Positions 9,428 through 12,157 of a DNA stretch of 13,632 nucleotides are shown here, piece after piece (the first letter of the stretch is position 1; each line of letters opens with the position of its first letter). The stretch comes from a virus (taxonomy: Duplodnaviria; Heunggongvirae; Uroviricota; Caudoviricetes): IMG/VR virus record IMGVR_UViG_2663763282_000004; one strand, written 5' to 3'. The notes under the pieces were generated by a model. That model had not been told where the DNA came from. It saw only the letters and a list, made by a program, of their open reading frames with translations, and did not search any database. The position numbers were made by a program, and so were the translations under genes.

Positions 9428-9613
9428 TTATGCCGCTTGGCGGTAAGCACTTTCTTGATACTTCAGGGCGCCAGCTGTAACGATTTCCAATCGATAGGCG
9501 TCTTTCTCTGGGATAACTTCTTTCCACTGAGAGACTGCTGCATCGCTAATGCCTAGTGCTTTAGCAACAGCACGCTGGGTTCCGAAGTGGTCAATAACAT
9601 CTTTTTTGTACAT
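9428..9613 (-). CDS. cro: Cro repressor (P22-type)
   Basis: 61 aa MYKKDVIDHFGTQRAVAKALGISDAAVSQWKEVIPEKDAYRLEIV... recognised as P22-like Cro; GGAG RBS; divergent from c2. Confidence 0.85.
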   Translation of the reverse strand: MYKKDVIDHFGTQRAVAKALGISDAAVSQWKEVIPEKDAYRLEIVTAGALKYQESAYRQAA

Positions 9614-9693: not shown

Positions 9694-10344
9694 ATGAATA
9701 CACAACTGATGGGTGAGCGTATTCGCGCTCGCAGAAAAGAACTCAAGATTAGGCAGGCTGCCCTTGGCAAGATGGTTGGCGTGTCTAATGTTGCTATTTC
9801 CCAATGGGAGCGATCTGAAACTGAGCCCAATGGCGAAAACCTATTGGCCTTAGCCAAGGCTTTGCAGTGCTCCCCTGATTACCTGTTGAAAGGAGAGGAT
9901 AGTCTTTCAAACATTGCCTATCACAGCAGGCATGATCCAAGAGGTTCGTATCCTCTAATTAGTTGGGTAAGCGCAGGATGTTGGATGGAAGCTGTAGAGC
10001 CATATCATAGGCGTGCAATAGATAACTGGTACGACACAACGGTAGATTGTTCTGAAGACTCTTTTTGGCTCGACGTTAAAGGCGATTCAATGACTGCCCC
10101 GGCAGGACTGAGTATTCCTGAGGGGATGATTATTCTCGTCGACCCAGAAGTCGAACCACGTAATGGAAAGTTGGTAGTCGCCAAACTTGAAGGAGAAAAC
10201 GAGGCGACATTCAAAAAGTTAGTTATTGATGCCGGTAGAAAATTCCTGAAACCACTCAATCCACAATACCCAATGATTGAAATCAATGGGAACTGTAAAA
10301 TCATTGGCGTTGTCGTTGATGCCAAGCTAGCAAACCTTCCTTAA
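9694..10344 (+). CDS. c2: Prophage repressor c2 (P22 c2 / lambda cI family; N-terminal HTH, C-terminal LexA-like S24 autopeptidase)
   Basis: 216 aa MNTQLMGERIRARRKELKIRQAALGKMVGVSNVAISQWERSETEPNG... with C-terminal G-D-S-M and K motifs (VKGDSMTAPAG...VVAKL) of the S24 fold. Confidence 0.95.
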   Translation: MNTQLMGERIRARRKELKIRQAALGKMVGVSNVAISQWERSETEPNGENLLALAKALQCSPDYLLKGEDSLSNIAYHSRHDPRGSYPLISWVSAGCWMEAVEPYHRRAIDNWYDTTVDCSEDSFWLDVKGDSMTAPAGLSIPEGMIILVDPEVEPRNGKLVVAKLEGENEATFKKLVIDAGRKFLKPLNPQYPMIEINGNCKIIGVVVDAKLANLP

Positions 10345-10404: not shown

Positions 10405-10470
10405 ATAAAATTAAGTTTTCTTCAAAAATACACTTGACCAATAAATTAAGAAGTCTTAAATTTAAGCCAT
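10405..10470 (+). promoter_or_regulatory. OL operators and pL promoter
   Basis: -35 TTGACC (10434-10439), 17-bp spacer, -10 TAAATT (10457-10462); overlapping 18-bp operator AATTAAGAAGTCTTAAAT (10445-10462), with further half-site-like TTAAG repeats upstream. Confidence 0.55.
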
Positions 10471-10507: not shown

Positions 10508-10548
10508 GGCTCTTTAACATCGACGGACTCTCAACCTAACCGTTGAGA
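10508..10548 (+). promoter_or_regulatory. nutL (boxA GGCTCTTTAACA + boxB hairpin tctcaac-ctaacc-gttgaga)
   Basis: boxA-like element at 10508-10519; 7-bp stem/6-nt loop hairpin at 10529-10548, upstream of N in the pL leader. Confidence 0.6.
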
Positions 10549-10658
10549 CCAGAACTTGAGTGGTTTTGGGGATGGCGCGAATTGCAGCTGCAAGACAGCG
10601 ATCGAGAAGATAAGCACCTCGACGCGTCATGCGCCAAAGCCACTTAAAGGAGACCATC

Positions 10659-10964
10659 ATGGTAACCATTGTCTGGAAAGAATCCAAAGGTACGGCAAAA
10701 AGCCGCTACAAAGCTCGCAGAGCAGAACTTATTGCCGAGCGACGCAGTAATGAAGCACTGGCGCGAAAAATTGCGCTAAAGCTCTCTGGTTGCGTCAGAG
10801 CAGACAAAGCAGCATCGCTAGGATGCCTTTGCTGCAAGAAGAAAGAAGAAGTCGTTCGAAAAAATAGAAGTATTTATTACAAAGATTCAAACCCATTAGG
10901 AAACAAAATACATGCAGTCCAAAAAATAAAATTGTACAGTAAACTACCGTACGGTGCTTATTGA
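10659..10964 (+). CDS. N: Antiterminator N, phage-21-type arginine-rich motif; 3' end mosaic
   Basis: AAGGAG RBS 6 nt upstream of ATG; N-terminal GTAKSRYKARRAELIAERR matches the phage 21 N ARM peptide as I recall it; the last ~40 codons are AT-rich and differ from the relic 3' end found at 11335-11430. Confidence 0.8.
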   Translation: MVTIVWKESKGTAKSRYKARRAELIAERRSNEALARKIALKLSGCVRADKAASLGCLCCKKKEEVVRKNRSIYYKDSNPLGNKIHAVQKIKLYSKLPYGAY

Positions 10965-10966
10965 GT

Positions 10967-11305
10967 ATGCTTATGGTGAAAAAGACTATTTATGTTAATC
11001 CTGACCGCGGACAAAACAGAAAAGTATCTGATAGAGGTCTTACATCTCGAGACAGGAGGAGAATAGCGAGATGGGAAAAAAGGATAGCATATGCATTAAA
11101 AAACGGTGTAACACCTGGATTTAATGCTATAGATGATGGCCCTGAATATAAGATTAATGAAGACCCAATGGACAAAGTTGACAAAGCATTAGCAACACCA
11201 TTTCCTCGCGATGTCGAAAAAATTGAAGATGAAAAATATGAGGATGTAATGCACAGAGTTGTTAATCACGCTCACCAACGAAATCCAAATAAAAAATGGT
11301 CATAG
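10967..11305 (+). CDS. Moron-encoded hypothetical protein (~112 aa, highly charged), unknown function
   Basis: AT-rich ORF starting 3 nt after the N stop (alternative starts at 10961 TTG or 10973 ATG; weak RBS); ends at a strong intrinsic terminator; no recognisable family. Confidence 0.55.
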   Translation: MLMVKKTIYVNPDRGQNRKVSDRGLTSRDRRRIARWEKRIAYALKNGVTPGFNAIDDGPEYKINEDPMDKVDKALATPFPRDVEKIEDEKYEDVMHRVVNHAHQRNPNKKWS

Positions 11306-11326
11306 CCCACTTCGGTGGGTTTTTTA
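11304..11326 (+). terminator. Rho-independent terminator after the moron ORF
   Basis: cccac-ttcg-gtggg (UUCG tetraloop) followed by TTTTTTATT. Confidence 0.7.
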
Positions 11327-11334
11327 TTGTCTGA

Positions 11335-11430
11335 ACAAACCTAATTTACTACCGCAAGCCACGCAGTGAAATGGGTGTGACTTGTGTTGGTCGCCAGAAA
11401 ATGAAATTAGGCAGCAAACCACTTATTTGA
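11335..11430 (+). pseudogene. Relic 3' end of an N gene (no start codon), left behind by module exchange
   Basis: In-frame translation TNLIYYRKPRSEMGVTCVGRQKMKLGSKPLI* parallels the C-terminus of the intact N (SIYYKDSNPLGNKIHAVQKIKLYSKLPYGAY*); an in-frame TGA lies immediately upstream. Confidence 0.55.
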
Positions 11431-11438
11431 GGTGATAT

Positions 11439-11525
11439 ATGGAAGAAGAATTTGAAGAGTTCGAAGAGCATCCTCAGGATGTGATGGAACAATACCAGGA
11501 CTATCCGTATGACTACGACTATTGA
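11439..11525 (+). CDS. Small highly acidic peptide ORF (28 aa); not in ORF track
   Basis: GAGGTGA RBS 4-5 nt upstream of ATG; MEEEFEEFEEHPQDVMEQYQDYPYDYDY. Confidence 0.4.
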   Translation: MEEEFEEFEEHPQDVMEQYQDYPYDYDY

Positions 11526-11596
11526 TAAAAATCAATGGTGTGGACAATACGAACGACGGCAATGATTTCCAGAGAACTTGGTAAACAGAACAACAA

Positions 11597-11788: not shown

Positions 11789-12157
11789 ATGTCAAACATC
11801 AAAAAATACATCATTGATTACGACTGGAAAGCATCAATAGAAATTGAAATCGACCATGACGTAATGACAGAGGAAAAACTTCACCAGATTAATAATTTCT
11901 GGTCAGACTCTGAACACCGACTCAATAAACACGGCTCTGTATTAAATGCTGTATTAATCATGCTGGCGCAACATGCTCTGCTTATAGCAATTTCAAGCGA
12001 CTTAAATGCATATGGTGTTGTGTGTGAGTTCGACTGGAATGATGGAAATGGTCAGGAAGGATGGCCTCCAATGGATGGTAGCGAAGGAATAAGAATTACC
12101 GATATCGATACATCAGGAATATTTGATTCAGATGATATGACTATCAAAGCCGTCTGA
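11789..12157 (+). CDS. Hypothetical pL-operon protein (122 aa), acidic; family not confidently recognised
   Basis: GAGGA RBS 9 nt upstream of ATG; clean ORF; located between N-proximal terminators and the cIII-like gene. Confidence 0.7.
   Translation: MSNIKKYIIDYDWKASIEIEIDHDVMTEEKLHQINNFWSDSEHRLNKHGSVLNAVLIMLAQHALLIAISSDLNAYGVVCEFDWNDGNGQEGWPPMDGSEGIRITDIDTSGIFDSDDMTIKAV

What the first reader, a model, noticed from the sequence alone, without database searches (positions are those of the whole stretch)
10830..11430. Module exchange inside N: intact N has an AT-rich alternative 3' end while a relic N 3' end survives downstream of the moron
The N reading frame switches to AT-rich sequence for its last ~40 codons. 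About 370 bp downstream, after the moron and its terminator, a start-less in-frame segment encodes a homologous but distinct N C-terminus (IYYRKPRSEMGVTCVGRQKMKLGSKPLI versus SIYYKDSNPLGNKIHAVQKIKLYSKLPYGAY). This is the footprint of homologous recombination within N that imported a foreign N 3' end plus the moron as one cassette. It marks a recombination hotspot and raises the question of whether the hybrid N is fully functional.
Basis: seen in the sequence. Interest (0 to 1): 0.5.

Follow-up and report, generated by a model that had tools for sequence, protein, structure and literature searches.

The report
Nun exclusion cassette inserted inside N
The prophage's antiterminator gene N is interrupted by a 479-base cassette that supplies a substitute N tail and the known lambda-exclusion gene nun, leaving the original N tail as a dead copy downstream; this arrangement is old, widespread and already sequenced in several phages.

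Summary
N (10659-10964) is phage-21-type up to base 10854. It then switches to an AT-rich, homologous but distinct tail. A start-less copy of the phage-21-type tail lies at 11334-11430, about 96% identical to phage 21 DNA.

The "moron" is not anonymous. It is nun, 108 of 109 residues identical to the HK022 Nun protein solved in PDB 6ALG, followed by its own terminator. The AT-rich N tail also carries the nun promoter annotated in phage O276. That explains both its base composition and why tail and nun always travel together: 69 of 69 related loci have both.

HK022 itself holds a start-less fossil of this same N tail upstream of nun. The same N-tail/nun/relic structure occurs in phages mEp235, mEpX1, PDP110P1, Kapi1 and Stx1a phages, and in 213 of 5426 complete E. 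coli genomes.

Against an uninterrupted N gene, the structure is a near-clean 479-bp insertion at N codons 65-67. The left joint is homologous and in register; the right joint is not homologous and is the same in all copies, so it arose once.

The hybrid N is very probably functional. Plaque-forming phages carry it, the ORF is kept in most loci, and the tail type is under purifying selection.

This is ordinary lambdoid mosaicism with some instructive details.

The parts
10434..10462 (+). pL-like promoter (TTGACC, 17 nt spacer, TAAATT). It overlaps the phage-21-type OL1 operator. It is repressed in the lysogen and drives N-nun transcription in lytic growth.
   Evidence: Consensus scan. Position corresponds to OL1 and the pL start annotated in phage 21, L002 1545-1570, mapped through the 96% alignment.
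10509..10548 (+). nutL of phage 21 type: boxA GCTCTTTA (10509-10516) and boxB hairpin TCTCAACCTAACCGTTGAGA (10529-10548).
   Evidence: Exact boxB match, with none expected by chance. Phage 21 annotation. No credible lambda-type boxB in the window: one 3-mismatch hit, as expected by chance.
10659..10854 (+). N gene body, phage-21 type (codons 1-65 and the first base of codon 66). It includes the ARM, ESKGTAKSRYKARRAELIAERR.
   Evidence: 96-97% identical to phage 21 and to uninterrupted N in L099 up to base 10854. The phage 21 N used as query is identical to the window N over residues 1-55; its residues 8-29 match the PDB 1NYB peptide exactly. phrog_271, E = 3.9e-30.
10855..10964 (+). Alternative AT-rich N tail (codons 66-101 plus TGA). 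It is the first part of the inserted cassette. It completes the N ORF and also carries the nun promoter.
   Evidence: Diverges from phage 21 and L099 from base 10855. GC 0.305 for 10847-10964. 96.8% identical to the HK022 sequence upstream of nun, starting at 10847. Homologous to the phage-21-type tail. Purifying selection against the Salmonella copy.
10912..10940 (+). PNun promoter inside the N coding sequence: -35 ATGCAG (10912-10917), 17-nt spacer, -10 TACAGT (10935-10940).
   Evidence: Hexamers annotated 'nun gene promoter' in the phage O276 record MH547045. They are base-for-base identical in the window. The -35 hexamer is identical in all six nun-linked tails aligned; the -10 is TACAGT in four, TATAGT in L074 and TACGGT in L076; both hexamers are absent from the nun-less Salmonella tail.
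10973..11305 (+). nun, the HK022-type transcription arrest and exclusion factor. Alternative start codons are ATG 10967 and GTG 10976.
   Evidence: 108 of 109 residues identical to PDB 6ALG chain N, with one change (S11R). The ARM peptide of 1HJI is identical. phrog_5632 'Nun-like transcription termination factor', E = 2.2e-69.
11304..11328 (+). Intrinsic terminator of the cassette: stem with UUCG loop, then T6ATT.
   Evidence: Terminator scan. Hairpin of -10.4 kcal/mol, although only z = -1.46 against shuffles. Conserved in type-A nun loci.
11329..11333 (+). Non-homologous right junction of the cassette (..ATTGTCTG|AACAAACC..). It is the same in every relic-bearing locus.
   Evidence: Junction sequences tabulated. 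Comparison with the empty site.
11334..11430 (+). Relic of the phage-21-type N tail (N codons ~67-99 plus stop). It has a 1-nt deletion at its 5' edge, no start codon, and its frame is closed by TGA 11332-11334.
   Evidence: 95.7% and 94.7% identical to phage 21 and L099. Translation. Frame walk.
11439..11525 (+). 28-aa acidic ORF that normally follows the N stop codon. It marks the resumption of the phage-21-type backbone.
   Evidence: phrog_16060, E = 7e-19. Colinear with phage 21.

Best explanation
Window 10855-11333 is a 479-bp cassette inserted into a phage-21-type N gene at codons 65-67.

The cassette has three parts:
- The 3' end of a different natural N allele (the 'NPLGNKIHAVQ' tail type). 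It is read in frame and completes a functional hybrid N.
- nun, the HK022 exclusion factor.
- An intrinsic terminator.

The AT-rich codons of the substitute tail also form PNun, the constitutive nun promoter.

Proposed operation (inferred). In the lysogen, pL and N are off. PNun inside the N 3' end makes a short nun transcript that stops at the cassette terminator. Nun then binds lambda-type boxB RNA on superinfecting phages and arrests RNA polymerase. The prophage's own nut sites are phage-21 type and are not targeted. In lytic growth, pL transcripts are modified by N at nutL and read through N, nun and the terminator.

The displaced phage-21-type tail (11334-11430) is an untranslated relic.

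Proposed origin (inferred). One ancient event, most simply a break in N repaired from an N(alt)-nun donor. The left joint was homologous and in register. The right joint was non-homologous.

Proposed spread (inferred). The cassette is now flanked by the conserved N middle on the left and by an N tail on the right. It has therefore been moved among immunity types by ordinary homologous recombination, and the same exchanges keep refreshing the relic.
For: Shown by tool results:
- Nun identity.
- PNun hexamers annotated in O276 are identical in the window.
- Empty-site comparison: the flanks are contiguous in phage 21 and L099 except for ~5 nt.
- HK022 and HK75 share the alt tail from base 10847 although they have no N.
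- Among 69 loci with nun at >=90% identity, 69 have the alt tail, 65 the relic and 60 the phage-21-type N 5' part.
- One common right junction.
- The same alt tail is joined to a second ARM type (MTVVITYLADDNARNRRRARR...) and to put-type left flanks.
- Alt-type tails exist without nun in Salmonella (GC-richer codons; 13 synonymous, 6 non-synonymous, 5 identical of 24) and in related form in Cronobacter.
- Relic alleles (PLI, PLYEG, QRGKSIPAYYD) mirror those of functional N tails.
- The swapped part corresponds to lambda N residues 74-110. The RNAP-binding CTD of lambda N is residues 73-107 (PMC3526286).
- nutL is phage-21 type and no credible lambda boxB is present.

From the literature:
- Nun acts through its ARM on lambda boxB and through residues 87-109 in the RNAP cleft (PMC5386594).
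- A paper on constitutive nun promoters exists (King et al. 2000; only the citation was seen).
- mEp235 and mEpX1 form plaques.

Inferred: the order of events, the break-repair mechanism and the role of the flanks as homology arms.
Against: - PNun activity in this N-containing context has not been measured. I could not read King et al. 2000 and rely on a GenBank annotation.
- The terminator hairpin is not statistically distinct from shuffles (z = -1.46).
- That Nun ignores nut21 rests on my memory of Robert et al. 1987, and on the statement that Nun acts 'specifically on lambda DNA'.
- The left end of the module coincides within 8 nt in HK022 and in N21 contexts (10847-10854). The simple model does not predict this.
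- All 71 relic copies are still open to the native stop. That could mean function rather than refreshment.
Confidence: 0.8

Rival explanations
1. Pure double homologous recombination within N. A crossover in N and a second crossover downstream replaced the resident 3' end with a foreign 3' end plus the moron.
For: The left joint lies in a stretch shared by both alleles (GAAGAAGTCG, 10845-10854) and is in register. Slightly different left joints exist: the PA28 type reads KKAEEVERK|NRS.
Against: A replacement would not leave the resident tail behind. The right joint shows no homology: terminator T-run plus ATTGTCTG against N codon ~67. It is the same in all copies.
Confidence: 0.1
2. The downstream segment is not a dead relic but is kept because it has a function. 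It might be translated from the internal ATG (MGVTCVGRQKMKLGSKPLI), serve as a cis element for the 28-aa ORF or ral, or act as a spare tail that restores a phage-21-type N when nun is lost.
For: All 71 copies (29 distinct DNA sequences) keep the frame open to the native stop codon.
Against: There is no start codon, no Shine-Dalgarno sequence was evident to me by eye upstream of the internal ATG, and TGA closes the frame just upstream. HK022, HK75, O276 and L076 lack the relic, and HK022 Nun is the experimentally studied protein. I count roughly 12 singleton non-synonymous variants against about 7 synonymous-only differences, which looks near-neutral. The allele pattern fits recombination with intact N genes.
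Confidence: 0.07
3. In-situ tandem duplication of the N tail, followed by divergence of the upstream copy and later insertion of nun between the copies.
For: The two tails are homologous.
Against: The N body and the relic are about 95-98% identical to phage 21, whereas blastn finds no phage 21 match to the alt-tail segment. The alt-type tail exists independently in Salmonella and Cronobacter N genes that have no relic. The alt tail and nun share an AT-rich composition.
Confidence: 0.03

Closest known systems
Phage HK022 nun locus (pL-putL-PNun-nun; Oberto et al. 1989; King et al. 2000)
   Same: Nun is 108 of 109 residues identical. The 476 bp from window 10847 to 11322 is 96.8% identical, including the PNun hexamers.
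   Different: HK022 has no N gene and no nut site; it uses put RNA. Its copy of the alt tail is a start-less fossil whose stop codon has mutated (TGA to TGG). Its nun 3' flank is a different type (type B, no relic). In the window, the same sequence is the working 3' end of N.
Phages mEp235, mEpX1, PDP110P1, Kapi1, PA28 and Stx1a-converting phages (GenBank records)
   Same: They have the same hybrid N, nun, terminator and relic at 91-99% identity. N and 'Nun-like' are annotated in the mEp235 and mEpX1 records.
   Different: The sequence downstream of the relic differs. The PA28 type has a slightly different left joint, and its N stop is lost, giving a 112-aa N. I found no paper that describes the relic or the promoter-in-N overlap.
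Phage 21 N / nut21 (PDB 1NYB) and lambda N (PDB 6GOV)
   Same: The ARM and nutL boxB are identical to phage 21. The module layout is ARM, middle, then C-terminal RNAP-binding tail.
   Different: The last 36 codons come from another allele, 49% identical to the phage-21-type tail.
Morons of lambdoid phages (an extra gene with its own promoter and terminator between genes that are adjacent in relatives)
   Same: It has its own promoter, its own terminator and a deviant base composition, and it is absent from close relatives.
   Different: It sits inside a gene rather than between genes. It carries a replacement 3' end for the gene it interrupts, and its promoter lies within that replacement coding sequence.
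Phage 434 290-aa gene downstream of N ('Nun C-terminal peptide-containing protein')
   Same: It occupies the same position after N. It ends with the Nun arrest peptide VNHAHQRNPNKKWS and shares the HK022-type 3' flank.
   Different: The rest of the protein is unrelated to Nun. There is no alt tail and no relic.

Membership tests
HK022 Nun transcription arrest/exclusion factor | N-terminal arginine-rich motif that binds lambda boxB (the peptide of PDB 1HJI) | tested here: met
   Residues 20-45 match the 26-residue 1HJI chain over its full length (E = 5.5e-11), and they are identical to HK022 Nun in the 6ALG alignment.
HK022 Nun transcription arrest/exclusion factor | C-terminal arrest segment, residues 87-109, with H98, R102, K106, K107 and W108 | tested here: met
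   Identical to 6ALG chain N over this segment. The residues are listed in PMC5386594.
HK022 Nun transcription arrest/exclusion factor | Constitutive prophage promoter PNun just upstream, and a terminator downstream | tested here: met
   The O276-annotated -35 and -10 hexamers are identical at 10912-10917 and 10935-10940. Terminator at 11304-11328. This is sequence evidence only; promoter activity was not measured.
HK022 Nun transcription arrest/exclusion factor | Excludes lambda-nut phages but not the carrier phage | not testable with these tools
   Indirect evidence only: the window's nutL is phage-21 type and no credible lambda boxB is present.
Lambdoid N antiterminator, phage 21 type | ARM cognate to the phage's own boxB | tested here: met
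   The ARM matches 1NYB exactly (residues 8-29) and nutL boxB is exact.
Lambdoid N antiterminator, phage 21 type | C-terminal RNAP-binding region homologous to lambda N residues 73-107 | tested here: inconclusive
   The phage-21-type tail aligns to lambda N 74-110. The alt tail is 49% identical to the phage-21-type tail and is under purifying selection. Binding to RNAP has not been shown.
Lambdoid N antiterminator, phage 21 type | Profile match to an N family model | tested here: inconclusive
   phrog_271, E = 3.9e-30. Pfam N_peptide scores 18.1 bits, below the cut-off of 27.9; phage 21 N itself is also below it at 22.4 bits.
Lambdoid N antiterminator, phage 21 type | Supports phage growth (processive antitermination) | not testable with these tools
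   Indirect evidence: mEp235 and mEpX1 carry the same hybrid N and form plaques.
Moron (Hendrix/Juhala sense) | Own promoter and terminator, deviant base composition, and absence from relatives whose flanks are contiguous | tested here: met
Moron (Hendrix/Juhala sense) | Located between two genes | tested here: not met
   The insertion point is inside N, at codons 65-67.

The most novel reading that the evidence does not exclude
The tail swap may not be a passive hitch-hiker. The alt tail would be a dual-coded sequence (N C-terminus plus PNun) that is co-adapted with Nun. One possibility is that it makes the prophage's own N-modified elongation complexes insensitive to non-specific Nun arrest in the RNAP cleft. 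The always-intact relic together with the conserved N middle would then act as built-in homology arms. These would let the nun cassette be gained, lost or moved among N genes reversibly without ever inactivating N.
Probability: 0.12. Interest if true: 0.6.

Novelty: new member of a known kind. Interest (0 to 1): 0.33.

Why it matters
- The classical HK022 exclusion gene nun mostly lives in N-dependent, phage-21-immunity-type prophages. About 4% of complete E. coli genomes carry this arrangement, and there it is annotated only as 'hypothetical protein'.
- The HK022 nun promoter region is a fossil of an N gene 3' end. This implies that the put-RNA phages acquired nun from, or descend from, an N-carrying relative.
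- A defence gene can be inserted inside an essential regulator without disabling it, because the cassette brings a replacement 3' end whose codons double as the defence gene's promoter.
- For genome annotation, it identifies a recurrent 'hypothetical' gene pair as N plus Nun.

None of this overturns current views of lambdoid mosaicism.

Tried and rejected
- King et al. 2000 (PMC94296) is not held, so the promoter assignment rests on the O276 GenBank annotation.
- Five literature searches found no paper describing co-occurrence of N and nun, the relic, or a promoter inside N. This is absence from an open-access library only.
- NCBIfam, Pfam and PADLOC have no Nun model.
- I looked for relic N tails after other post-N morons (434, Cronobacter pentapeptide genes, Salmonella DUF7446, Proteus nun-like genes). 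None was found except one weak hit in L084, E = 0.018.
- Selection on the relic could not be decided: too few independent substitutions.
- Tandem duplication in place and assembly artefact were rejected. The first fails on divergence and on independent alt-type tails. The second fails on presence in 213 complete genomes.
- The composition profile and terminator fold gave only weak statistical support on their own.

Full report
**Context.** The window is the early-left region of a lambdoid prophage, read in the pL direction on the + strand. It contains cro (9428-9613, minus strand), a repressor (9694-10344), a pL/OL region, phage-21-type nutL, N, an extra gene, and then a 28-aa ORF, a ral stub and an ea10/DUF2528 gene (11789-12157).

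**1.
- N (10659-10964) encodes 101 aa.
- GC falls from 0.489 in the N body to 0.305 over 10847-10964.
- The relic peptide IYYRKPRSEMGVTCVGRQKMKLGSKPLI is encoded at 11344-11427, followed by TGA.
- Window 10400-10881 matches phage 21 at 96.3%. Window 11334-11564 matches the adjoining phage 21 sequence at 95.7%, E = 1.5e-104.
- The relic is therefore real phage-21-type N 3' DNA, not a chance resemblance.
- It cannot be translated from its 5' end: TGA at 11332-11334 closes the frame and no start codon follows before the tail.

**2. What the 'moron' is.**
- The ORF 10973-11305 is Nun. It is 108 of 109 residues identical to HK022 Nun in PDB 6ALG, with an identical ARM (1HJI) and an identical C-terminal arrest segment.
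- It matches phrog_5632, 'Nun-like transcription termination factor'.
- Nun binds lambda boxB RNA through its ARM. Its residues 87-109 wedge into the RNA polymerase cleft and block translocation (PMC5386594).
- An intrinsic terminator with a UUCG loop and a T6 run follows at 11304-11328.

**3. What the AT-rich tail is.**
- HK022 and HK75 have no N gene. Even so, they are 96-97% identical to the window from base 10847 onward.
- So HK022 carries a start-less fossil, VVRKNRSIYCKDSNPLGNKIHAVQKIKLYSKLPYGAYW, between putL and nun.
- The O276 record (an HK022/lambda hybrid) annotates the 'nun gene promoter' -35 ATGCAG and -10 TACAGT in this stretch.
- Both hexamers are identical in the window, at 10912-10917 and 10935-10940, inside N codons 85-94.
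- The tail is nevertheless a genuine N tail. It is 49% identical to the phage-21-type tail.
- The phage-21-type tail in turn aligns to lambda N residues 74-110 in PDB 6GOV. The RNAP-binding CTD of lambda N is residues 73-107 (PMC3526286).
- An alt-type tail occurs without nun in a Salmonella N gene, with GC-richer codons. Over 24 codons there are 13 synonymous, 6 mostly conservative non-synonymous, and 5 identical.
- That pattern indicates purifying selection on the peptide. The Salmonella copy has neither promoter hexamer.
- Cronobacter N genes have a related tail.
- The AT-rich version therefore codes for an N C-terminus and a promoter at once. This explains why the tail and nun are inseparable.

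**4. Anatomy of the joint.**
- Against an uninterrupted close relative (L099), identity runs to base 10854 (..GAAGAAGTCG) and resumes at 11334 (AACA-AACC..ATTTACTAC).
- Only about 5 nt (AGCGT) of N is unaccounted for.
- The structure is thus a near-clean 479-bp insertion (10855-11333) at N codons 65-67.
- The left joint is in register within a stretch shared by both alleles. The right joint, between the terminator tail and N codon ~67, shows no homology.
- Every relic-bearing locus has the same right junction, so it arose once.

**5. Distribution.**
- Among 69 loci with nun at >=90% identity (IMG/VR and GTDB), 69 have the alt tail, 65 the relic and 60 the phage-21-type N 5' part.
- The same module is also joined to a second ARM type (MTVVITYLADDNARNRRRARR...) and to put-type left flanks, with or without the relic.
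- A second kind of nun 3' flank, without a relic, occurs in HK022, HK75 and L076. It is shared with the phage 434 290-aa gene that ends in the Nun arrest peptide.
- 213 of 5426 complete E. coli genomes contain >=80% of window 10640-11440. In the best-matching genome, RefSeq calls both genes 'hypothetical protein'.
- Sequenced phages mEp235, mEpX1, PDP110P1, Kapi1, PA28 and the Stx1a phages have the same arrangement.

**6. Is the hybrid N functional?** Very probably.
- mEp235 and mEpX1 encode the same hybrid N and are plaque-forming, inducible phages.
- An intact hybrid ORF was found in 56 of 61 loci with a recognisable N 5' end; at least one of the misses is a limit of the search pattern.
- The closest protein cluster has 229 member sequences.
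- The tail type is under purifying selection.

**7. The relic.**
- All 71 copies (29 distinct DNA sequences) are open to the native stop.
- They carry the three end alleles also seen in functional N tails..KPLI..KPLYEG and ..QRGKSIPAYYD.
- Only 21 of 69 loci share the next 130 bp.
- My preferred reading is that the relic is repeatedly overwritten by homologous exchange with intact N genes of other phages. On this reading it also serves as the right-hand homology arm that lets the cassette move.
- A function for the relic itself cannot be excluded, but it lacks a start codon and is absent from HK022.

**8. How it most likely works.**
- In the lysogen, pL is repressed and PNun inside the N 3' end makes a short nun mRNA that ends at the cassette terminator.
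- Nun then arrests polymerase on superinfecting phages that carry lambda-type nut sites.
- The prophage's own nut sites are phage-21 type: nutL boxB is an exact match and the nutR hairpin is identical to phage 21's. No credible lambda boxB is present. Self-targeting is therefore avoided.
- After induction, N-modified transcription from pL reads through nun and the terminator.
- The sequence features are shown. Promoter activity in this context, the specificity for lambda nut over nut21, and the origin by break repair are inferred.

**9. Unexplained.**
- The left end of the module coincides within the octamer AGAAGTCG (10847-10854) in both the HK022 and the N21 contexts.
- The relic begins almost exactly where the left-hand identity stops (note).

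**10. Verdict.**
- the gene is nun;
- the event is an old, widespread insertion rather than a local exchange;
- homologous recombination alone cannot produce the relic;
- the hybrid N works.

The components and the arrangement are already in public records. The promoter-in-coding-sequence overlap, the HK022 N fossil and the persistently intact relic are modestly new details.

Noticed in passing
window 11509-11565: ral is a stub. A 104-bp internal deletion relative to phage 21 (microhomology GGnCAAT) leaves MTTTIDKNQWCGQYERRQ*. An 18-residue Ral-family gene is also called in L099, whereas E. coli BR1220 has an intact ral.
   Followed up: partly
window 11439-11525: A conserved 28-aa, highly acidic ORF (MEEEFEEFEEHPQDVMEQYQDYPYDYDY, phrog_16060) lies directly after the N tail or relic and overlaps the ral start. 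It is not annotated in the phage 21 record.
   Followed up: no
L007 677-1546 (phage 434); L086-L089: The 290-aa gene after 434 N ends with the Nun arrest peptide VNHAHQRNPNKKWS and shares the HK022-type 3' flank. An unrelated protein body is thus fused to the Nun RNAP-cleft segment.
   Followed up: partly
L082 2655-3276, L085 2667-3288, L084 2700-3288 (Proteus phages): An N-like gene is immediately followed by a distant Nun-like gene ending ..VVNHAHQRNPNKKW. L084 has two tandem ARM proteins, and the first combines a Nun-like ARM with an N-like tail (SGEVTARA). This suggests ARM and tail shuffling between N and Nun.
   Followed up: partly
L079 2781-3330: A nun homologue 58% identical sits behind an HK022-like put sequence, with no alt N tail upstream. 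The nun-put association is therefore not unique to HK022.
   Followed up: no
L092 2806-3644; L094-L096 2821-3465: The slot just after N is a general moron hotspot. It holds DUF7446 plus a pentapeptide-repeat protein in Salmonella, and pentapeptide-repeat proteins in Cronobacter.
   Followed up: no
window 10973-11305 and E. coli RefSeq genomes (L097 2520-3166): Nun has no Pfam, NCBIfam or PADLOC model. In the best-matching RefSeq genome, nun and the hybrid N are both annotated 'hypothetical protein', although 213 of 5426 complete E. coli genomes carry the pair.
   Followed up: yes
N protein clusters P0001-P0120: N proteins of this family are three-module mosaics. At least three ARM types are combined with at least four tail types: phage-21 type, alt, Cronobacter-type and P22/933W-type (LPNVALYAAGYRKSKQLTAR). 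All are joined through the conserved middle ARKIALKLSGCVRADKAASLGSL.
   Followed up: partly
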